64,000 bases of DNA from Gonapodya sp. JEL0774. Taxonomy: Eukaryota. The position numbers were made by a program, and so were the translations under genes. Of this stretch, positions 40,946 through 53,525 are shown one piece after another; the stretch's first letter is position 1, and the number at the start of each line of letters is the position of its first letter. Below the pieces are notes generated by a model. That model did no database searches and was not told where the DNA came from. It saw only the letters and a list, made by a program, of their open reading frames with translations. The stretch covers positions 1 to 64,000 of the forward strand of contig JADIIX010000120.1 of assembly GCA_027604505.1 (NCBI GenBank), read 5' to 3'.

Positions 40946-41092
40946 TGGGATGTGGAAAGGTGACTGTGGAAGTAAAGGGGAAGTTCGGGCAAATTCATCC
41001 CGATCCGACGAAGAGCAGATGTACAAACATACCCAGCCACTATACTCATCATAACTTAAAATTATAGTCTAAATGGATAGCTCTCGTAACTG

Positions 41093-42084
41093 CTACTGTA
41101 CCCTCTGCGATTTCTTGCACACGTAGACGTAGTAGTGAAACGCCGTCCCGATGGTGTACACCACGACGCTTTCCCATAGATGGTCCCTGCCGTCCACAGC
41201 GGTGAGCTCGAGGTGTCGACGACGAAAGTGGGGTTGACCAAAGGTTATCTGGGGGGGGGGGGGGGCAGGGGGCGGTCCGAGAGTGGGTGCTACGGCATGA
41301 AGAAAATAAAGGAAGAAACGACGAAACACTCACGTAAATGAAAACACCACCTGGTTTTAAAACCCTGTACACCTCTCTGACATAGCGTTCCACCTCTGCG
41401 CAGAGTTCGGCAGGGGGATTCCACGGGTCGTAGCTGCGCCTGGGTCGCGTCCATGTTTTATTTGCATCGTCGTCGTTTCCATGGTCCTCGCCCTCGTCGC
41501 CCTCGTCGCCCGCGACCAGCAGTGCGTCCATGGTACCTTTGTCGATTGCGGCCTCAAAACTATCTGCTGCAAACGCCACCATATCACGAATGTCAGCGAC
41601 TTCCATCTTGAACACTGCAGGGTCAAGACCCAATTTCAAGGATCGAGCTCTCATGGCGTCGATGACTGTGGGGGAGTAATCGACCGAGGTGACGTGTGTA
41701 TAGTTGGACACGGTCGACAAGGACTCAGACAGGGTAGAGTTACCGCAACCCAGGACCAAGAGGTGAGGTGGATCGGATGGAGAGGTGGGAGGAGGAAGAG
41801 GTGGGAGGTTCGCCTCCAAAACAGGACGGATTTCTTCGTACGACTTAAACCAGTCAAAAGTGGTTTCGGGGCCTTCTCTGTCGATAGAGTTGGATTGAGA
41901 AAAAGTCAGAAAGGGCAGACGCGCAACCAAGCACTTACTTCTGATATCTGGCTTCCCAGTAGTCTTTGGATTTGTACTGGAAGAGAAGAGTGGTACGTGA
42001 AGAACCCCTGAACATGGGCAGTGAGAGCAAACGATTGGGGCTCACTTGGGAGTTATTTTCGGGGAGCACTCTCAACGATGCCAT
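41093..42084 (-). CDS. Class I SAM methyltransferase, EEF1AKMT4/METTL13-N-like
   Basis: YKSKDYWEARY, FDWF, LVLGCGNSTLSE, SVDYSPTVI, AIDKGTMDAL, EVYRVLKPGGVFIY/ITFGQPHFRR. Confidence 0.88.
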
Positions 42085-42234
42085 GACTATGATTATCTCT
42101 TGATGCGGAAGAAGGATTGATGGCTGGAGATGGGGGAAAGAAAGAAGTTGGGTTCTGGCACCTACGTACATCCTTCAGAATCGCGGTACTGATCGGCTCA
42201 TCCTTCCCAGACTTCCGACCTTGACACAATAAAA

Positions 42235-43988
42235 ATGGCGTCTCCAATTCCCGCTGGATTCCCTGATTTGCGACACGAGAGCCTGCTCAATGTCAGAGGG
42301 AAAGTCTGCCTTGTCACGGGCGGCGGAACGGGAATCGGCAAGAGTTCGTGTGACTATGTTCGAGGCTGACACCCCTTCCACGACTCTGACTGCCTTCCCA
42401 AAAGTGATGGCTACCGCACTCGTGCGAAATGGTGCCACTGTATATATTTCATCCAGAAAACTACCGGTTCTCGAGGCAGTCGCCAGGGAGATCACGGCCC
42501 TCGGTCCGGGTACCTGTTACGCAATACAGGCTGACCTTTCCAGTAAGAAGGCCTGCTATGATCTTGCTGCAGAACTGGCAAAGCGGGAGGATAGGCTGCA
42601 CCTGCTTGTGAACAACTCAGGAGCGGTGTGGGGAGCTGTGAGTCCGAATAATGATGTTCAGCGTCGGTCTCCCCTAAACTTTTGTTCCATTTGTGTTTGG
42701 TTATGCATTCTCCTGTCATTTTTTTTGCGCATCCAGCCATTGGAAGATTATCCTGAGGTGCAAGGATGGACCAAGATCATGCAACTCAACCTGATGTGCA
42801 TATTCTATCTTACCACCGCGTGAGTCATCCTTGCGCTCATTCTCCAGGACGTATCCCTCTCGCTCCTCTCATCACTTTACACCCGTGCCGGAAAACATCA
42901 TCACCGTCCCCCATGCTTACGAACCCGGAAACAACAAACACTCAGATGCCTCCCTCTGCTCGAAAAGGGCTCACGTGGTCCCACAGACCCCGCCCGCGTC
43001 GTAACCATTGCCAGTGCTTTGGGAATCGTACCTCACGATACATAGTGAGTATGCCGTCACACTGCGGACCCACTAGCTGCCCTCTGAAAACGGAAAATTT
43101 CCGCATCTCGCATCCTACCTTGCGCTTCACCTCAACCTGCTTCCCACGCACCCAAGTTTGGGAATGGACGGAACCACTAACGTGTCTTACAACGCGACAA
43201 AGGCCGCGGATTTACACATGACGAGGCATCTGGCGGGAATGCTCGCTAAACGGGGCGTGGTGAGTGTTTTGCTGAGCACCGGGGGTCATTGGGGATGGAG
43301 CCAACAAGGGGGATGTGACGGACTCGACTCGGTGTGAGTCCCCGGTGGGATGATCGAAAATACATACAAATCAACTGGTTTGTCTTCTTTTGACAATCTT
43401 CTTTGGCTTTTGCTTCATTTGCGAAACCCACCCGCCCCGTCTTCTCCACCAAGACCGTGAACACCGTTGCACCTGGAATAGTACCCACGAAATTCGTTAA
43501 GTTTGGAATGAGCCAGAATCAGCGATTGTTGTTGAAGGAGTATCCCATGGGTAAGAGCTTCCATACTTCCCGATTCTGTTTCGCCTCGTTGTAGTATCCT
43601 GTCTGCGGCGTGTGACGGAGCCACTCCATTTCGTTTCCCCTCTCTGCTCTTGATCACGACAACACCATGTGACCGCATACACGGTATTTACGTCTTACTT
43701 TCATTTCACTCAGGCCGATTCGCGGTGCCCACTGACGTTGGAGGGACGATACTCTTTTTGGCATGTGAGTTGCTTGTTTTTTCACAGCAAAGGGGTGGGA
43801 CGTCGTGGTTTGATGATCCAATCAACAATGGCGTGCGCCGTTCACTGCCCACTCTGATTCCCTTGTCATCTTGCCTCACCCGGCATCCAACCCAAAACTC
43901 AGCCAAAGCATCGTCGCATATCACGGGTGCGACACTCGTTCTTGACGGAGGATGGAGTTTAGAGGATTCTGGATACTCGCGGCTGTAA
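42235..43988 (+). CDS. Short-chain dehydrogenase/reductase (classical SDR, RhlG-like)
   Basis: LVTGGGTGIG, LVNNSGAVWG, catalytic YNATK, TVNTVAPG, ITGATLVLDGG. Confidence 0.9.
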
Positions 43989-44239: not shown

Positions 44240-47191
44240 ATGTCTGATACGAAACCCCCCCTCACCTCTCGCACTCCCCTCTTCCCACAGGCGCCCGTAT
44301 CATCCCGCGCTCAAGCGTCGCTGTCTTCTGAAAACCAGCTTGGGCAAGGACGAGCCCGAGCTCAGGCGAACGAGTACGACGAGCTGTCGAACCCTTCGGG
44401 AATAATAAACTTGGGCGTCGCTGAAAATAGACTTATGTGGAAGGATATCCTGGAGAAGGTGCTTTAGCGAGGGGTTCCTCCCTCTCTTCCGCACCATTGG
44501 TGTTGTCTAAACCCTCGCTCACGGTTCCGCACATTCACGATTCCTTACAAGCTCAACTCAGGATTCGTCTACGAATCTTCCCATCTCCAGTACCCGCCCT
44601 ACTACGGAACCGAAGGCCTTCGCACCGCGATCGCCGCGGTCCTGAATTCGATCCTGGTGCCTCTGCCCAATGCCAAAGTTTCCCCACAACATATAGTCGT
44701 CACCAACGGTTGTGGTTCAGCGATTTCAGTTCTGGCCAGCGTTTTGGCCGATCAGGGTCAAGGCGTTTTGGTCCCTGCGCCGTATTACGGGGGATTTCGT
44801 GAGTTGGTTGGCGACCGCAATTACTTGTTGCATTATGAGTCCCCTCTGAATGCTGATGGAGACTATTTGACTGTAGATTCTGATTTGGAAGACGAATCAG
44901 GCGTGAAATGCATTGGTGTGAACTGTGACCCCGAAGACAAATTCCGCCTCAGCTTTGACAGACTGGACCAAGCGTAGTAAGTTGTCGGAGATGGCCCGAT
45001 GTGATCGTCGAGTTGTGAGTCCCGACTGCAACTCAACCTTAATCATCCTCAAAACATGGCGCTCTGCCTTTGTCGTGTCCAGCCACCGCGCAAGTGCAAA
45101 GGGCGTCCACGTCCGCGCCCTCCTAATCTGCTCTCCGAACAACCCTCTTGGCAACTGCTACGCTCGCTCAGAACTAGTGGACATGATGCGATGGTGCGCA
45201 AAGAGGCGAGTCTCTTTCGTCAGCGATGAAATCTATGCCGGGAGCTGGTTCGGCGGCTCAGACGGTAAGTGATCTTAAACAAGTTTCTTTGTTCCTTCAC
45301 GGGTCGATCTTGTGGTGACAGCTCCTCATATGTTTCTATGAATGGCCGATCTCCAAAAATACTCTGTGGAACGTTTTATCCAAAACCCACTCTTCAAGAG
45401 ACCAACCGAGAAGATCCCCTCCACCCTTTTGTTTCTGTCCTTGCAATCGACTCAGAGGCGGAAGCCGGCCTACCAAAGGAAATGGTCCATGTTCTGTGGG
45501 GCCTTTCCAAGTGAGCACGATGACACTTGCGGGTGACATCTCTTTTAGGCTCATTGGGGGGCGTGTCTCATCTACCCGATCTCCAATTGCTCAGAGATTT
45601 TAACATGAACGGATTGAGAGGTGATCAAAGTGAACTAATTCTTGGTATCGGGCCACAGAGGATCTCACAATTGTAGCGCTTTTGCGCAGTCGGAGCCATT
45701 CAATCCCGGAACACGCTAGTCATCGCCGCATGCCGCAACCTGGCAAAGTTTCACGGTACGCTATCATGCGTCTCAAACCTCGTTTTGACCCATGTCCCGT
45801 GGGTTCTGCGCGGCTTCGATAACCTTTAGGCCCCCCTCTAGCCATAGCCCACCCTTTGCACACCTTGCTGACCACACTCCTCTCCGACACTTTTTTCCTC
45901 ACCACACACACGGAGACCAATAAGAACCGTCTGAGAGACATGTATGGGCGGATAACTGGGTGGTTGAGGGAGCGCAAGATTGGCTTCCTCCGCGCCAACG
46001 CGGGATTCTTTCTGTGGGTAGATTTCCGCAAGTACGTACAGAAGCTCGGCGGAAAAGTGTTCAGCTTGCAAGGGCCAGTCGGAGAAGAGTATTACGAGGA
46101 CTTCTTTGATGTAGGTAGAGCGGAGGAGGTGGAATGGAGTGTCAATCTTTCTCCGTGAACTCGAGGTGAATGTTTTGGGCGGATAATCTTTTCACACAAG
46201 CAATCACTGCTTAGGCTCCACTCGATCGATCTGCGGAGCGGGAATTGGCGGGTCGCTTTCTCAATGCCGGGGTGTGAGTTGCTTTTGTCGCCTTCCCTTC
46301 AATCCAAATGTTGAAAATTCTCCCGATCCCTGCACCGTACAGCTACGTTGCCCACAGCGAGGCGTTTTACAGTCGCGATATGGGTGGGAGTCTCTACAAG
46401 TGTTGATTGCAAAAGAAGCTTTGTCTCTGTTCATAAGGTCCTGACAATTCTGTTCTCTCCAAGGATGGTTTCGTATCGTGTACGCGACCGACGATTGGAG
46501 GAAACTGGAACTTGCTCTCTCCCGCATGTGGACTGTTCTGCAGAAGATCGATCTCGAAGTCGACGACGTCCCGCCCGCATTCGCCGAACCATCATCGTCG
46601 TCGTCGTCGTCGACTCTGTCCCCTGTTCTCCTGTCAGCGAAATCAGATCCCCTTACGTTTTCGCACTTGGGAATCAATGCCACTGATCCCAGCCTTCTCG
46701 TAGACTTTTACACGAACGCTCTGGGCTTCACAGTTACAGACACAGGGTTCTTGGATACACCAACCGGTCGTGTGCATCTCACCTTCACGAGCCGATCACC
46801 CAAAGATCACCACCAAATTGTCATCGCTTCTGGAAAACCGAAAGACGTGCCCTTCAACGTTGTCAATCAGATTAGCTTAGACGCGCACAATTTGCCTGCC
46901 ATACGGAGATTCGCACGCCGATGTGTGCAACATGGAGCCACCGATGTGCAACCAGTCACACATGGGAATGCGATCAGTGTATATTTGAGAGATCCAGAGG
47001 GTAATCGGATAGAGATTTTCATGGACACGCCCTGGTACATCAATCAACCGCACCGTGTACCAATCCCGGACTTTGATGCAAAGACCGACGTGGAGGTTAT
47101 GAAGTGGGTGGAGGAGCATTCACGTGAAAATGAAGGATTTGTTGATCGGGAGTTGTGGGTGGACAGGATGAAGGAACGGATGGGGGTTTAA
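44240..47191 (+). CDS. ACC-synthase-like PLP enzyme (aminotransferase class I/II) fused to a C-terminal VOC/glyoxalase-dioxygenase domain
   Basis: GIINLGVAENRL, PAPYYGGF, SPNNPLG, SDEIYA, WGLSK/DFNMNGLR/VG (PLP Lys), AGFFLWVD, GWFRIVYA. The last exon (46464-47191) continues without a stop through a Ser linker into FSHLG..FYTNALGFTVTD..HHQIV..THGNAISVYLRDPEGNRIEIF. Confidence 0.88.
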
Positions 47192-47514
47192 GAATACTGT
47201 TTTGTATTTGATGTGTGCCACCCTACCTTATGTGATATCTAGTGACAGTTGGAGAGGGTCCGAGGTTCATGCACTTTATTTGGCACAAAGTGGGAGTCTA
47301 ATAGCGTTGGATGCACAGACTCCCAGTAGCGGCGGGCTTGACATATTCCCAAATTGGGGGAGAGACCAATTGCGAATCTCAACTTCCATCGTCCCGGCCT
47401 TTCAACCTCTTCAGTGGAGATTCCCCGCAATCCTAAGTCAGCACCGTATTTAAAGTAATTTTATTGCGAAGAAGCACATAGAGCTCAACGTGGATTAAGT
47501 TTGAGGAAAGACAT

Positions 47515-50290
47515 ATGTTGACCTGTTTGGTGACCTACCGGACGTGCACCGCTGAAACTATCCACTTACAGCATCTGAGTTTCGAACGGTTTCCGATGGC
47601 GACCAGTGCTCTTTCCGAGAACGGTAATATTCCAAATATCGCGAACATTTATCCCTCTGCGCTATTAGATTTCATCTCCTTCATTTTCCCCTGATTTGAG
47701 AAGAAAACGCGACATCACTTGTAGAGCAATCTGATCGAAATGAAACGCCGATGGAACTCAATGAAATCTCTGAACCTGACTCCGAACTCAGCGATCTCCA
47801 ATCACGCATAGCGCGCCTTCCTATCCCCTTCGAACTTCTTCTCGCTGGTTTGTCATACCCTCGACCAGCGCCGCCGCTGTTTGTGGAAGTCGCGGACGAC
47901 GGCACGACCAGCGACGAGGTGGCGGAAGATCTGGTGAAACAAGGTATAACCACCGTGTTTACAAAGCTGTCGCTGCCCGTAAGTGTCGAGGCACCAGCGT
48001 CAAAGTGGTTCCACGTTGAACTCGGACTACGCCGGTGCAGGGTCAAGGCCTTTCAGACCTTTCTTTCTTAAAAAGTTTCAAATATATTCAAACGCTTGAG
48101 TTGCCGGGGAACGGCATCACCAGTGGGTGATGCTCAACTGTGCTCAAGAATGCTTCCGGGGAGTGGCTGAAGATATTGTCTCCAGGTGCCGAACCCCTCT
48201 CCCATCTGCCTCACCTAGTCCATGTTGACCTTTCCGGCAACCGCCTTTCCACTGTCCTCGAGGAAATTCACCCGATAACCCCTTCCAAGTCCATCCCTCC
48301 TCTGGAGTCAGTAGACTTATCCCGAAATCAGATTCAGAGAATAGGAGACCTGTCCAGACACAGATATCTCAGAAGCTTGACGCTTGAGCGCAATTTAATA
48401 ATGGGGATTGAAGGACTGGATGGGTGCAAGTACCTTACGGAGCTGAGGTGCGTTGTCGCATCATTCACGGAATATTGTAGTTTCGATTAAATCCCGTGAG
48501 CTTACGTCAGACTCGGACACAACGGAATAAGCAAGCTAACGGGACTTGATAATCTTCCTTTGACAAAACTCGATCTGGTGAGTTTCCCGACTCAAAGAAT
48601 AACCTGATCTTACGTCTGGTAGCGACCGAACGCCCGGCTCCGCTTGCAGCGTTGGAACCGCCTCACTTCACTGTCCGGCCTCTCTCGGCTTCCCAACCTT
48701 ACCCACTTGATCGCTCCTCACAATGCTGTGTCCTCGCTCTCCTCATTATTTGACTGCTCCGTTACCAACCCACGCCTATCCCACCTTGACCTTGCCCACA
48801 ACCTCATCGCCGACATCGCTGAGCTAAATCCCCTCAAAGATGCCGTGATGTTGAGAGCATTAGTGCTAAAGGGCAACCCCGTGGCGGGGAGAGGCGATTG
48901 GGGGGACGGCGATGGGGATCAGGGTGATGGAAAGGGCGGCCCTCCACGGTCGAACGCCTCCCGTTCCATATCTTCGTCTACAGGTCAAATTGCATCGTTC
49001 TCCTCACTACACCAATCTGCAGTAGCTTTACACACGGTTGGGTCTCGGCCCCCATCTAGCTCCACCATTTCTCATTCAAAATCACCTGTCCCCGCAGACA
49101 CCTATCGCCTCTCCGCAATTTTCATGCTCCCTTGTCTCACTTCACTTGATGATCACCCTGTGACTGCCGAAGATAAAGTCGCCGCAGTGAATCGCTTCGA
49201 CCCTCCCCCCGAGGTGCGAGCAGCCGTAGCGCACGCAGAGCGGACTGCGAAGCAAGCGAAACTCTACGCCCGTGTTCGGCACACCGATCTGATGCACCAC
49301 CGCAGCGGGAGATTGAGACCTGTTGTACTGTGCGGGCCTTCTGGTGTTGGGAAGAGAACACTTGCAGCGCGACTTGCCGCGGAGTCCCCTCATGTGTTTG
49401 GTTTGGCTGTTTCGCACACGACGAGGGCTCCAAGACCTGGTGAAGAGGATGGGGTTCACTACAGATTTGTTGGAAAGGCTGAAATGGAGGAGATGGTAGA
49501 GGCTGGCGAGTTTGTGGAAAGCGTGACTTTGTTCGGAAATATGTACGGAACAAGTGTGGGGGAAGTGGATCGTGTGGCAGAAGAGGGCAAAGTCTGTGTG
49601 ATGAGCGTGGAAGTTGAGGTACGTGCGGGGCCTGTATGATCGTCTCGCTTCAAACACTGACTCCAGTGCTACTGCCTATCACCGAAACTCCAGGGAATTG
49701 CGGCTTTACGCCGCTCCACAATCAGGCCCCGATACGTTTATGTCGCGGCACCTAACATCGAAGCCATTAGTACACGGCTACAGAACCGACAACGGACAAT
49801 GCACTCGTCACACATCTCACGGTCAAGGACTCAAACGAAGCTGAGCTCGGCGGGACACTCAAACGTGCGGAGCGAGGATGACACAGCCTCGCTTATGCAC
49901 GGACTGCAGGAACCACCGTCCTTGCCTAAGTCAGAAGAACCGGGAACAGTAGCGGCTGTGGAAGAAGAGATACGAAGATGGATGGAGAATGCTGAACAGA
50001 GTCTGGTTTCCGCAGAGAAGCTCGGCATGAACTTCTTTGATCTGGTTGTCATTAATGACAATGTGGAATTGGCGTATAGACAACTCAAGGTGGGTTTCAG
50101 AACACCTCCGTTCCTTCCTTGCGTGTTGCTGCTTCTCCGTATGAGATTGTCCAATTTTTCATAGGATTTCGCCCTTTTGGCGTGTAAACCTTCAGCATAT
50201 GATGACATAGATTTTAAAATGGACGAGAATGAAAGTGTAATCGAAGTGGGACAGCATGTTGAAGATTCGTGGGAAGAAGATAGGCAATGA
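47515..50290 (+). CDS. LRGUK: Leucine-rich repeat and guanylate kinase domain protein (flagellar)
   Basis: SDS22-like LRRs (LVHVDLSGNRL, LESVDLSRNQI, LTHLIAPHNAV, LSHLDLAHNLI) and LRR cap LTSLD..EDKVAAVNRFDPPPEV, followed by GK PVVLCGPSGVGK..SHTTRAPRPGEEDGVHYRFV..YGTS. The start may be 47596. Confidence 0.85.
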
Positions 50291-51998: not shown

Positions 51999-53525
51999 TC
52001 AAAGACTAGACTTCTGATCTTCAACTCCTAGTCCAACGACAAATCCCTCGAGGGCGTTGTAATCTCCAGCTAATACTCTCTCGACAATCTCCTTAGACCT
52101 TTCAGGTCCAAAGCCTTTCTCAACTTTTATCCAAGCTCCGCAAACTCGCATGGTCCGATCCCACATATCGCGTTGGCGACGAGCGAACTCTGCACCTCCA
52201 AGCTCTTTCACTCGCTCTCCAGACCACCCAGGAGCGAAGAAAAAGTGGGAATTCGGGGGGCGGAACGACGCTACTGAGGGTACAGGTGATGACCAGTGTG
52301 ACTTCGTGTTCAAGATTACATTTATCAGTGGTTCGGGCAATGTTGAAGGCTTCAAAGTTCGCTCACCGCCCCCACCCTCACAGTTTGTCGGACCCCTGAC
52401 AAACCATATCGGTCGTAAATTGCTTTGGTGACAGAGTCATCGCCTGCCATGTCCACAACCACGCATCCGCCTTCACGAATAGGAAGGTCCTCTGCAATTT
52501 TGGGACTGCGTCCGAGAGGGTGCAACGGAACAGGCAAAAAGCATTATACACACGTGTTTCTCATGCATTACACCCGTCAGAATGCGACCCAACCCACTAG
52601 GTGACGACTGTGTCGAAGCAGTTTCTAAGAGTAGATTTCACGAAATCCAGATTTCTCTGCGAAGTGATTCCGATCGCTTCAGTCGTTGGATCCAATTGTT
52701 TGAGACAGAAACCGAGCGAGTAGGCAGTCTTAGAGGACGCAGATATGATAACCACGGTTTTCGTGGGAGGACCAGTCGGGGAGGAGAAGTTGTTTTTTCC
52801 CAGAACATAGTCCGCAAGAAGATAACCAGTGCTCCAAAGGCCGCGAAGCTAATCAAATCAAGCGGGATGGTCATTGCTGTAAGAAAAGGTGCCCGAACCT
52901 CTAGATGTGCGTACCAGCATCCCTTGATCCTCAAGCTCTTGAGTGGTTGGTGTAGGCAAGTCTCTCTTTGAAACTCGTGAATACGTCAGGTACACTAAAC
53001 GGTCTTCTGGCAAATCATCACGGCGGACAGTGAAAGCCGATGGGGAGGTCTTCGCGGGATTGGGGACCAAGATGCAGTGTGAAGCACAAGGAAAGTAGCC
53101 CCACAACCTTTCTCCTACTTCCACGAGAGGAGAAAGGGAGTGGGTAACGGTAGCAAAGCCCCAAACTGGCATCTTGCCTAGAGCTTTCTGTTTGTCCCCT
53201 TCCACAGGGAAGAAGTCAAAGTATCGAAGAGATCTTCCCGTAGCGAGATATGACACATTGTTACTGGTGACACCGAACTTGTCAATTCGAACGAGTACTT
53301 GAGGTGGGAGCGAAGGGACGACGAGTTTGTCCGTTCGGAAGCAATTGTTCCGAACAACCACGGAATGGAACGCATTCACATTACATTTCATTTCAAAGTC
53401 GCTCTCTCTGTGTCATACATGGACTCACTTTCTCCTTGCTTCAGAGGCCCAAGTTGAGTGGTCCGAACTTCAAACTCGCGTGGATCGGCTTGCTTGAAAA
53501 TGAACTGCACGGATTTGACTGTCAT
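51999..53525 (-). CDS. DUF2855-like protein
   Basis: ILVRIDKFGVTSNNVSY..G..LRYFDFFP..MPVWGFATV..GERLWGYFP, VDMAGD, FFFAP. Exon 1 MTVKSVQF..GE from 53525. Confidence 0.7.

What the first reader, a model, noticed from the sequence alone, without database searches (positions are those of the whole stretch)
46652..47191. Intronless, bacterial-looking VOC domain: probable horizontal acquisition onto an intron-rich gene
Seen: the PLP half is broken by about ten introns, while the VOC half is one uninterrupted block. Its motifs (FYT..LGFTVTD.G.L.TP.G.V.L.F.SR.P..HHQIV.ASG.P....FNVVNQISL, V.PVTHGNAISVY.RDPEGNR.E.F.DTPWY..QP.RVP) match my recollection of single-domain proteobacterial VOC proteins. Inference: a bacterial gene was captured and recruited as a C-terminal domain.
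Basis: partly seen in the sequence, partly recalled or inferred. Interest (0 to 1): 0.75.

Follow-up and report, generated by a model that had tools for sequence, protein, structure and literature searches.

The report
Bacterial-origin dioxygenase domain on chytrid gene
In the chytrid fungus Gonapodya sp. JEL0774, the last exon of an intron-rich PLP-enzyme gene carries a complete ring-cleavage-dioxygenase-like (VOC) domain whose nearest relatives are free-standing Burkholderiales proteins; it was therefore likely acquired from bacteria, but three free-standing Gonapodya copies suggest the transfer likely happened once in the genus and was not special to this fusion.

Summary
Window 46652-47191 encodes a full VOC domain (Pfam PF00903, E 3e-12). 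It lies in the same exon and frame as the end of an ACC-synthase-like PLP enzyme, gene HDU93_001001 of Gonapodya sp. JEL0774. My refined model has 10 GT-AG introns, all upstream of the VOC part.

The domain is 50-55% identical, end to end, to about 185-residue stand-alone proteins of Burkholderiales. No other long fused form turned up in two very large protein searches.

The fused domain is not alone in the fungus. JEL0774 has two more stand-alone copies and G. prolifera has one. In an ML tree all four form a clade (97/94) nested in a Burkholderiales clade (99/92), and all four share a two-residue insertion that bacterial copies lack.

The best reading is one old bacteria-to-Gonapodya transfer, then duplication, with one paralogue fused to the PLP gene. 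Whether fusion or free-standing came first is open. An AU test does not reject separate capture (p 0.31). The G. prolifera orthologue's 3' end is mis-annotated, so it cannot show whether it lacks the domain.

The likely function is inferred only: a one-domain extradiol-type ring-cleaving dioxygenase coupled to PLP chemistry. This is a solid but ordinary kind of event, with a unique domain architecture.

The parts
44240..47191 (+). Whole gene HDU93_001001 (ACS-like PLP enzyme + VOC domain). The refined model has 11 exons and encodes 692 aa.
   Evidence: The deposited protein P0123 (720 aa) maps here. The refined splice model is in frame, has a single stop, and all its introns are GT-AG.
44240..46549 (+). 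PLP (aminotransferase class I/II, ACC-synthase-like) half. Exons: 44240-44458, 44552-44798, 44877-44976, 45083-45264, 45399-45510, 45595-45620, 45690-45755, 45842-46140, 46215-46273, 46343-46383, and the start of the last exon.
   Evidence: PF00155 is precomputed for P0123. Identity is 54-59% to G. prolifera P0125 and about 30% to animal ACCS-like and Fusarium/Trichoderma ACS-like proteins. The SKDF lysine motif is invariant in A2.
44459..46463 (+). Span holding all ten introns: 44459-44551, 44799-44876, 44977-45082, 45265-45398, 45511-45594, 45621-45689, 45756-45841, 46141-46214, 46274-46342, 46384-46463.
   Evidence: One search lists the donors, acceptors and phases. Intron 2 (78 nt, in frame) is retained in the deposited model and is absent from all 5 homologues in A2.
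46464..47191 (+). Last exon (728 nt). It encodes the end of the PLP fold, the linker, the whole VOC domain and the stop codon.
   Evidence: There is one open frame from 46445 to 47188. Its translation is P0001.
46550..46648 (+). Linker (DLEVDDVPPAFAEPSSSSSSSTLSPVLLSAKSD) with a seven-serine run at 46592-46612. It contains no ATG, so the VOC part has no start codon of its own.
   Evidence: Translation. Homologues of the PLP half end at or just before this stretch. Bacterial VOC proteins begin 3-9 residues before the LxFSH motif.
46652..47188 (+). VOC domain. It corresponds to the entire length of the bacterial ~185-aa proteins: two beta-alpha-beta-beta-beta modules plus two C-terminal helices.
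   Evidence: Pfam. Homologues cover 92-100% of the query. The AF2 model has pLDDT 93.6, with secondary structure as listed. The VOC fold scores Z up to 12.7.
46664..46666 (+). His9 of the domain (SH motif). It aligns with His153 of catechol 2,3-dioxygenase 1mpy.
   Evidence: Invariant in A1. Alignment.
46808..46816 (+). The HHQ motif (residues 57-59), invariant in the family. His58 aligns with His199 of 1mpy.
46868..46870 (+). Gln77, invariant in the family. It stands where 1mpy has His214 and where 9u42 has His.
46961..47014 (+). The stretch THGNAISVYLRDPEGNRIE. His108, Tyr115 and Glu125 align with His246, Tyr255 and Glu265 of 1mpy.
47069..47074 (+). Two-residue insertion (Asp-Phe). It is shared by all four Gonapodya copies and absent from bacterial copies.
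   Evidence: In alignment A3 it is present in 4 of 4 Gonapodya rows and 0 of 8 bacterial rows. 287 of 350 aligned rows have the short form.

Best explanation
The 3' exon of this Gonapodya sp. JEL0774 gene encodes, in one frame with an ACC-synthase-like PLP enzyme, a complete VOC domain. That domain most likely descends from a single old transfer of a Burkholderiales-type gene into the Gonapodya lineage, after which the gene duplicated and one paralogue became fused to the PLP gene.

Shown directly:
- The two halves share one exon and one frame, and the VOC part has no start codon of its own.
- The closest relatives are bacterial proteins.
- Four Gonapodya copies exist.
- All 19 family-invariant residues are kept in the fused copy.

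Inferred:
- The direction of transfer and that there was a single origin.
- That the fused protein is made and is bifunctional.

Predicted mechanism, by likeness only:
- The VOC half would be a metal-dependent, one-domain extradiol-type dioxygenase that opens a catechol-like ring. It keeps the His/Tyr/Glu positions of catechol 2,3-dioxygenase, but has Gln at the second metal-ligand site.
- The PLP half, which keeps its Schiff-base lysine motif, would act on the amino-acid part of the same or a neighbouring metabolite, so that two consecutive steps sit on one dimeric protein.
- The substrate is unknown.
For: Fusion
- There is one open frame from 46445 to 47188 and no Met between the PLP tail and the VOC start.
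- The flanks are intron-bearing eukaryotic genes: an SDR, a methyltransferase, an LRR-guanylate kinase and a DGAT.

Bacterial kinship
- Identity is 47-56% over 92-100% of the query to 176-210-aa proteins. All 9 organism-named rows are Betaproteobacteria.
- 217 relatives were found in species-representative prokaryote genomes, and the best are mostly Burkholderiales.
- Atlas neighbour clusters are 96-100% Bacteria.

Uniqueness of the architecture
- Among proteins of 322-2000 aa, only the gene itself and one half-VOC+FAH protein matched.
- In the exhaustive search, which gave 863 hits with the best 150 listed, the only long C-terminal fusion is the gene itself.

Gonapodya family
- P0247 and P0254 are from JEL0774 and P0258 is from G. 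prolifera.
- Careful ML tree of 82 rows: the four form a clade at 97/94, inside a 23-row clade at 99/92. All 10 order-named rows of that clade are Burkholderiales. P0254 pairs with the G. prolifera copy at 99/82, so the duplications predate the split of the two species.
- FastTree of 304 rows: the clade holds exactly these 4 rows, support 0.951.
- The shared Asp-Phe insertion is in 4 of 4 Gonapodya rows and 0 of 8 bacterial rows. Its columns were not used for the tree, because columns filled in under 30% of rows are dropped.

Age
- GC3 is 0.536 in the VOC part, 0.627 in the PLP half and 0.59-0.95 in 9 bacterial homologues.
- Synonymous codon use fits the PLP half slightly better than the bacterial set, logL -224.9 against -233.7.

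Integrity
- All 19 columns invariant in 30 family members are kept.

Function
- The family profile hits the catalytic domain of catechol 2,3-dioxygenase (E 1.5e-11) and homoprotocatechuate 2,3-dioxygenase (E 1.9e-11). H9, H58, H108, Y115 and E125 fall on H153, H199, H246, Y255 and E265 of 1mpy.
- Of 12 bacterial loci inspected, 4 have an adjacent MhpA-type aromatic hydroxylase (NF004829, 575-643 bits against a cut-off of 390), 4 have an IclR regulator, 2 have a FAH-family enzyme (one a true fumarylacetoacetase), and 2 have a GST.
- VOC+FAH fusions occur in metagenomes.
Against: - The AU test does not reject a tree in which the fused domain sits with bacterial sequences, apart from the other Gonapodya copies (delta lnL 7.4, p 0.31).
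- The fused copy is more like bacterial proteins (up to 55% identity) than like its fungal paralogues (38-45%). Long fungal branches of 0.6-1.2 could attract each other.
- The order of fusion and duplication is unknown, and fusion could have come first.
A Picozoa single-cell entry sits in a distant cluster of the family.
- I could not read the DNA of the three stand-alone Gonapodya genes, so I did not see their introns or contigs.
- No expression data exist for the gene.
- The second metal ligand of extradiol dioxygenases is Gln here. The fold search shows only a generic VOC fold with many near-tied hits. The enzymatic claim is therefore by likeness and bacterial gene context only, and nothing links the two halves functionally.
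Confidence: 0.68

Rival explanations
1. Direct capture at this locus. A bacterial VOC gene would have landed just downstream of the ACS-like gene and been read through into it. The stand-alone Gonapodya copies would then be either later offshoots of the fused copy or separate transfers.
For: - The fused copy branches first within the Gonapodya clade, has the shortest branch (0.6 against 0.74-1.19), and is the most bacteria-like at up to 55% identity.
- The domain matches the whole bacterial ORF from about residue 5 to the last residue, and the fungal stop codon falls where the bacterial proteins end.
- There are no introns in the domain.
- Separate placement is not rejected (AU p 0.31).
Against: - All four Gonapodya copies share the Asp-Phe insertion and form a clade at 97/94 and 0.951.
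- The VOC GC3 is not bacterial-like, so the event is old in any case.
- A fusion-first history needs the offshoots to gain promoters and start codons, which is no simpler than the reverse order.
Confidence: 0.22
2. Vertical descent. On this reading the VOC family is an old eukaryotic gene kept only in Gonapodya and lost everywhere else, and the bacterial likeness reflects slow evolution.
For: Four copies sit in two species whose PLP orthologues are only 54-59% identical. That shows long residence in the lineage.
Against: - The Gonapodya clade attaches inside a shallow Burkholderiales clade (99/92), while Alphaproteobacteria, Actinomycetota and Acidobacteriota branch further out.
- No other eukaryote joins the clade.
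- The best hits in all searches are bacterial.
Confidence: 0.04
3. Artefact. On this reading the junction is an assembly chimera with bacterial DNA, or the VOC part is a decaying, untranslated remnant.
For: No sequencing run could be listed to check reads across the junction, and there are no RNA data. The deposited gene model has splice errors.
Against: - The junction lies inside one exon, with fungal coding sequence upstream and fungal intron-bearing genes downstream.
- GC and codon use are host-like.
- The frame is open for 248 codons, and all 19 invariant family residues are kept.
- Related copies exist in a second, independently assembled Gonapodya genome.
Confidence: 0.03

Closest known systems
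Stand-alone ~185-aa VOC proteins of Burkholderiales (e.g. records named VOC family protein of Polaromonas, Eoetvoesiella caeni, Pusillimonas caeni, Janthinobacterium); uncharacterised
   Same: They match in length and align from end to end at 47-56% identity. All 19 invariant residues and the C-terminal two-helix extension are shared.
   Different: The bacterial proteins are free-standing and often sit beside an MhpA-type hydroxylase, an IclR regulator, a FAH-family enzyme or a GST. The fungal domain is the C-terminus of a PLP enzyme, has host-like codon use and carries a two-residue insertion.
One-domain type I extradiol dioxygenases (family I.1, BphC2/BphC3 of Rhodococcus globerulus P6), and the catalytic domain of two-domain enzymes such as catechol 2,3-dioxygenase XylE (PDB 1mpy) and homoprotocatechuate 2,3-dioxygenase (1f1r)
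   Same: - It is a single VOC domain of about 185 residues.
- The family profile matches 1mpy residues 147-273 (E 1.5e-11). The first His, the second-sphere His, the catalytic His and Tyr, and the Glu all align.
- An Atlas neighbour cluster is auto-named 'Biphenyl-2,3-diol 1,2-dioxygenase 2 family'.
- Family I.1 is described in passages of PMC4250580.
   Different: The second metal-binding His (His214 of 1mpy) is an invariant Gln. I made no direct comparison with BphC2 or BphC3 sequences. No activity is known for any member of this subfamily. The roles of the 1mpy residues are recalled from the literature, not taken from a call.
VOC-type 'homogentisate 1,2-dioxygenase' of Acinetobacter (PDB 9u42, 182 aa, deposited as Glyoxalase) and L-DOPA dioxygenase of Streptomyces sclerotialus (PDB 6on1/6on3)
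   Same: - These are single-domain VOC ring-cleaving enzymes of similar size.
- 9u42 gives the longest structural alignment: 148 residues, Z 11.7, rmsd 4.1. Its second module matches the family profile at E 3.3e-10.
- 6on3 scores Z 11.1.
   Different: Identity is only 13-19%. The Z scores are tied with glyoxalase I and fosfomycin-resistance proteins. 9u42 has His where this family has Gln77. I found no paper on 9u42.
ACC-synthase-like PLP enzymes of opisthokonts (animal ACCS/ACCSL, Fusarium and Trichoderma ACS-like proteins; G. prolifera KXS proteins P0125 and P0126)
   Same: The PLP half is PF00155, 54-59% identical to P0125 and about 30% to the rest. The SKDF lysine motif and the GWFR(I/V) C-terminal motif are conserved.
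   Different: None of the other 119 listed relatives has a VOC domain. Some animal forms carry an N-terminal PF13837 domain instead.
Interkingdom xenologs of early-diverging fungi (Ciach et al. 2024, PMC11291939)
   Same: This is the same kind of event. That study reports 26 xenologs in 22 gene trees for G. prolifera and names Burkholderiales among the common donors (passages read).
   Different: The G. prolifera family member KXS09509 does not occur in the two supplementary files held as text (0 occurrences). JEL0774 was not part of that study as far as the passages show.

Membership tests
VOC (glyoxalase/bleomycin resistance/dioxygenase) superfamily, PF00903 | Sequence match above the curated cut-off | tested here: met
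   47.4 bits against a cut-off of 20.6, E 3e-12, covering profile positions 2-121 of 121.
VOC (glyoxalase/bleomycin resistance/dioxygenase) superfamily, PF00903 | Two paired beta-alpha-beta-beta-beta modules | tested here: met
   The AF2 model (pLDDT 93.6) has E10-14, H17-28, E31-40, E43-51, E60-64, and then E77-81, H85-97, E101-107, E111-117, E123-129. VOC structures score Z 10-12.7.
Type I extradiol dioxygenase, one-domain form (family I.1) | A single VOC domain of about 190 residues, not the two-domain form of about 300 | tested here: met
   The domain is 183 residues and its homologues are 176-210 aa.
Type I extradiol dioxygenase, one-domain form (family I.1) | A 2-His-1-carboxylate metal site (His153, His214 and Glu265 of 1mpy; the roles are recalled) | tested here: not met
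   His9 and Glu125 align with His153 and Glu265. His214 is replaced by Gln77, which is invariant in all 30 family members. A Gln ligand or another nearby His (HHQ motif) could substitute, but this was not tested.
Type I extradiol dioxygenase, one-domain form (family I.1) | Catalytic second-sphere His and Tyr (His199, His246 and Tyr255 of 1mpy; the roles are recalled) | tested here: met
   His58, His108 and Tyr115 align with them and are invariant.
Type I extradiol dioxygenase, one-domain form (family I.1) | Ring-cleaving activity on a catechol | not testable with these tools
   There is only context. An MhpA-type hydroxylase is adjacent in 4 of 12 bacterial loci.
ACC-synthase-like class I/II aminotransferase fold (PF00155) | Family match, with the PLP-binding lysine motif and the C-terminal Arg motif | tested here: met
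   PF00155 is precomputed for P0123. SKDF is invariant, and GWFR is present in 5 of 6 rows of A2, including this gene.
ACC-synthase-like class I/II aminotransferase fold (PF00155) | ACC synthase activity (SAM to ACC) | not tested
   No residue-level or activity test was done. Animal and fungal relatives are only named 'ACC synthase-like' by their sources.
Bacterium-to-fungus xenolog | Nested with support inside a donor clade | tested here: met
   The Gonapodya clade lies inside a 23-row clade at 99/92, and all 10 order-named rows of that clade are Burkholderiales. The root is not inferred, but a root on the fungal stem would put Actinomycetota and Alphaproteobacteria inside Burkholderiales.
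Bacterium-to-fungus xenolog | Absent from other fungi and eukaryotes | tested here: inconclusive
   No further row joins the 4-row Gonapodya clade among 304 rows. Of the 30 cluster look-ups, the only eukaryotic names were three Gonapodya records and one Picozoa single-cell entry in a distant cluster. Most hits are unnamed, and no eukaryotic genomes could be searched.
Bacterium-to-fungus xenolog | Sits on genuine host DNA | tested here: met
   It shares an exon and a frame with a host gene that has 10 introns. The neighbouring genes are intron-bearing eukaryotic genes, and GC is host-like.

The most novel reading that the evidence does not exclude
The chytrid has built a bifunctional enzyme found nowhere else in about 5.8 billion catalogued proteins. 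A bacterial ring-cleaving dioxygenase is welded to an ACC-synthase-like PLP enzyme, so that an aromatic (DOPA-like) amino acid is both ring-opened and processed at its amino-acid end on one protein. That route is not known in fungi. The fused copy may also be the original landing site of the transfer, from which the free-standing fungal copies later budded off.
Probability: 0.15. Interest if true: 0.65.

Novelty: new member of a known kind. Interest (0 to 1): 0.45.

Why it matters
This is a clean, checkable case of a bacterial gene family that settled in an early-diverging fungus, multiplied, and in one copy became a domain of a native, intron-rich gene. Domain fusions of xenologs with host genes show how transferred genes get wired into host metabolism.

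Two enzyme groups with no assigned function are brought together here: the opisthokont ACC-synthase-like proteins, and a Gln-bearing subfamily of one-domain extradiol-type dioxygenases. A single expression experiment on this protein could therefore give a first substrate for both.

The case also flags three things:
- splice errors in the deposited models of both Gonapodya genes;
- that intron absence alone is weak evidence of transfer in this genome;
- a xenolog family not found under its accession in the supplementary files I could search of the published early-fungal HGT survey.

Tried and rejected
- Whole genome of the window: none is held. I could not read the DNA of the stand-alone Gonapodya copies or of the G. 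prolifera orthologue.
- Sequencing runs for 46300-47300: none was listed, and no RNA holder was listed. I therefore have no read-level check of the junction or of expression.
- Earlier scan notes: one unrelated hit by sequence, and nothing by place.
- Using the annotated end of P0125 as proof that the sister species lacks the domain: rejected. Its last 21 residues align with the out-of-frame translation of this gene's last exon, scoring 45 against a maximum of 39-40 in 200 shuffles per frame. That margin is modest.
- Intron absence as strong evidence of transfer: rejected, because P is only 0.027 and long open exons are common nearby.
- A residual bacterial GC signal: none. GC3 is 0.536, below the PLP half.
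- A transferred operon: tblastn of a bacterial MhpA-like protein, two FAH proteins, a GST and an IclR against the window found nothing at E 1e-3. Only one VOC copy lies in the window.
- Fold search for a specific function: Foldseek and VIA-align give many near-tied VOC folds (glyoxalase I, FosA/X, antibiotic-binding proteins, dioxygenases). They do not single out a subfamily.
- Naming the nearest unnamed bacterial neighbours: the third cluster look-up returned no organism names.
- A paper on PDB 9u42, or on a VOC-type homogentisate dioxygenase: two searches found none on that enzyme.
- I did not run complex prediction, because I make no binding claim.
Full report
WHAT IS THERE

The window comes from Gonapodya sp. 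JEL0774, a monoblepharid chytrid. The finding lies in gene HDU93_001001, deposited as a 720-residue hypothetical protein, P0123.

The stretch matches Pfam PF00903 (Glyoxalase/VOC) at 47.4 bits against a cut-off of 20.6. An AlphaFold model built on 30 relatives is confident (pLDDT 93.6). It shows two beta-alpha-beta-beta-beta modules followed by two helices. Structure comparison confirms a VOC fold, with Z up to 12.7.

GENE STRUCTURE

Mapping P0123 back onto the DNA gives ten exons. Aligning P0123 with five relatives shows three errors in the deposited model:
- a 26-residue insert that no homologue has, which is an in-frame 78-nt GT-AG intron at 44799-44876;
- a mis-spliced stretch around 45621-45689;
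- an acceptor taken 12 nt too early, near 45830.

My refined model has 11 exons and ten GT-AG introns of 69-134 nt, and encodes 692 residues. All ten introns lie in the PLP half.

The last exon (46464-47191) encodes three things in order: the final ~29 residues of the PLP fold (GWFRIVYATDDWRKLELALSRMWTVLQKI), a Ser-rich linker of ~33 residues, and the whole VOC domain up to the stop. The linker has no Met, so the VOC part cannot be translated on its own.

The intron asymmetry is real but modest. At the gene's own intron density, 3.6 introns would be expected in the VOC part, P(0) = 0.027. Seven other open stretches of 248 residues or more lie between 33 and 58 kb of the window.

The flanks are eukaryotic: a methyltransferase, an SDR, an LRR-guanylate kinase and a DGAT. 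GC is even across the region. Contamination or a chimeric contig is therefore very unlikely, although no reads could be laid.

WHO ARE THE RELATIVES OF THE VOC HALF?

- Near-length search: 420 hits. The best 120 are 176-210 residues long, 47-56% identical, and cover 92-100% of the query. All nine rows that carry an organism name are Betaproteobacteria: Polaromonas, Eoetvoesiella, Pusillimonas, Telluria, Janthinobacterium and unnamed Burkholderiales.
- Species-representative prokaryote genomes: 217 relatives, the best being mostly Burkholderiales.
- Atlas: the neighbour clusters are 96-100% bacterial, and one is auto-named 'Biphenyl-2,3-diol 1,2-dioxygenase 2 family'.
- The fungal domain matches the bacterial proteins from about their fifth residue to their last, and it keeps all 19 columns that are invariant in 30 family members.
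- Among longer proteins, the only matches were the gene itself and a 337-residue half-VOC+FAH protein.
- An exhaustive HMMER search of 1.84 billion representatives gave 863 hits. Among the best 150, the only long C-terminal fusion is the gene itself. Two proteins of 416-423 residues are tandem double VOCs.

THE UNEXPECTED PART

Cluster look-ups show three more members of the family in Gonapodya:
- P0247, 184 aa, is HDU93_001231 of the same fungus.
- P0254, 175 aa, is HDU93_000226 of the same fungus.
- P0258, 195 aa, is KXS09509.1 of G. prolifera JEL478.

I built a careful ML tree of 82 rows under LG+C20+F+G4. It used 68 of the 79 loci; I left out four long-branch rows and seven near-duplicates or partial rows. 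To these I added the four Gonapodya sequences and ten database proteins. The results were:
- The four Gonapodya sequences form a clade at 97/94.
- The topology is (fused,(P0247,(P0254, G. prolifera P0258))), and the inner pair has support 99/82.
- The clade sits inside a 23-row clade at 99/92, and all ten order-named members of that clade are Burkholderiales.

In a 304-row FastTree the Gonapodya clade holds exactly these four rows, with support 0.951.

All four share a two-residue insertion, Asp-Phe in the fused copy at window 47069-47074. All eight aligned bacterial sequences lack it, and 287 of 350 aligned rows have the short form. The other rows of 15 or more residues at that place look, by my reading of the print, like frameshifted or divergent tails. 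The insertion columns were not used for the tree, so this is independent support.

Against this, an AU test does not reject a tree that holds the fused domain with a bacterial trio apart from the other fungal copies (delta lnL 7.4, p 0.31). The fused copy is also more similar to bacterial proteins (up to 55%) than to its fungal paralogues (38-45%).

THE PLP HALF

The PLP half behaves as a native gene. Its best relatives are two G. prolifera proteins: P0125 (496 aa, 54-59% identical) and P0126 (500 aa, 39-45%). After these come animal ACCS-like proteins and Fusarium/Trichoderma ACS-like proteins at about 30%. Of the 120 listed rows, only the gene itself has PF00903.

It cannot be answered for the true orthologue P0125. 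Its model loses the conserved GWFR motif exactly at the position of intron 10. Its tail aligns with the out-of-frame translation of this gene's last exon, scoring 45 against at most 40 in 200 shuffles per frame. The date of the fusion is therefore open.

Because P0254 pairs with the G. prolifera copy, the paralogue lineages, including the one that is now fused, already existed before the two species split.

AGE OF THE TRANSFER

The VOC part has GC3 0.536, against 0.627 for the PLP half and 0.59-0.95 for nine bacterial homologues. Its synonymous codon use fits the host half slightly better. The transfer is old and fully ameliorated.

LIKELY FUNCTION (INFERRED)

The family profile hits the catalytic C-terminal domain of catechol 2,3-dioxygenase (1mpy, E 1.5e-11) and homoprotocatechuate 2,3-dioxygenase (E 1.9e-11). 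In the printed alignment:
- His9, His58, His108, Tyr115 and Glu125 fall on His153, His199, His246, Tyr255 and Glu265 of 1mpy.
- His214 is replaced by Gln77, which is invariant in this family.

The roles of the 1mpy residues, as metal ligands and acid-base residues, are recalled from the literature and do not come from a call.

One-domain extradiol dioxygenases of about 190 residues (family I.1, BphC2/BphC3) are a described but little-studied lineage (passages of PMC4250580).

I inspected 12 bacterial loci and scanned 56 flanking ORFs of the 130 I called. Next to or near the VOC gene I found:
- an MhpA-type aromatic hydroxylase in 4 loci (NF004829, 575-643 bits against a cut-off of 390);
- an IclR regulator in 4;
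- a FAH-family enzyme in 2, one of them a true fumarylacetoacetase;
- a GST in 2;
- TRAP or TctC transport proteins in 6.

VOC+FAH fusions also exist in metagenomes. This context fits a ring-cleavage step in aromatic-acid breakdown. None of these partner genes lies in the window.

For the fusion I can only propose that the two halves act on successive intermediates of one aromatic amino-acid-derived metabolite. Single-domain VOC enzymes that cleave L-DOPA (6on1/6on3) and an entry titled homogentisate 1,2-dioxygenase (9u42) are among the structural neighbours (Z 11.1-11.7). They are, however, tied with glyoxalases and fosfomycin-resistance proteins.

COMPARISON WITH WHAT IS KNOWN

Transfer from bacteria into early-diverging fungi is well documented. 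One survey reports 26 xenologs in G. prolifera and names Burkholderiales among the common donors (passages of PMC11291939). The G. prolifera member of this family, KXS09509, does not occur in the two supplementary files of that paper that are held as text. I found no paper on this fusion or on the family.

The event is thus a new member of a known kind: a xenolog family plus a domain fusion. Its domain architecture was seen only once in the databases searched.

VERDICT

- The bacterial origin is well supported.
- 'Captured onto this gene' is only partly supported, because the family also lives free in the genus.
- The order of fusion and duplication, and the chemistry of the protein, remain open.

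Noticed in passing
window 44799-44876, 45621-45689, 45756-45841: The deposited model of HDU93_001001 (720 aa) has three flaws. It retains an in-frame 78-nt intron, which adds 26 residues that no homologue has. It mis-splices the stretch that should read GLRVGAIQSRNTLVIAACRNLAKFH. It also uses an acceptor 12 nt too early. The refined model encodes 692 aa.
   Followed up: yes
protein P0125 (G. prolifera JEL478, 496 aa), C-terminal ~48 residues: The annotated C-terminus of the G. prolifera orthologue looks like intron read-through followed by the last exon read out of frame. Its real C-terminus is not known, including whether it has a VOC domain.
   Followed up: partly
window 52002-53412 (- strand): Two open stretches match DUF2855 (PF11017, E 7e-32 and 6e-07). 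I recall this as a mainly bacterial family, so it may be another gene of foreign origin near the finding.
   Followed up: no
window 42233-43988 (+) and 41052-42041 (-): A short-chain dehydrogenase gene ends about 250 nt before the start of the PLP-VOC gene, and a methyltransferase gene lies just upstream of that. This could be a small metabolic cluster, or it could be chance.
   Followed up: no
window 47590-50161 (+): The downstream gene combines leucine-rich repeats with a guanylate kinase domain (PF13855/PF12799 plus PF00625).
   Followed up: no
proteins P0124 and the cluster of P0261; loci L011 4955-6100 and L013 5551-7416: In metagenomes the VOC family occurs fused to FAH-family (PF01557) domains. 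In two bacterial genomes it sits next to one. One of these is a full fumarylacetoacetase (TIGR01266, 556 bits).
   Followed up: partly
proteins P0244 (423 aa) and P0245 (416 aa): These are bacterial or metagenomic proteins that hold two tandem copies of this VOC family. They amount to a 'two-domain' form that arose within the one-domain lineage.
   Followed up: no
cluster of P0267 (member P0450): A Picozoa single-cell-genome entry from EukProt sits in a distant cluster of the family, among JGI metagenome proteins. It may be contamination or another transfer.
   Followed up: no
locus L019 5776-7568: In Ottowia beijingensis the VOC gene lies next to IS91-type transposase fragments (PF04986, PF14319). 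That hints that the bacterial gene can sit in mobile contexts.
   Followed up: no
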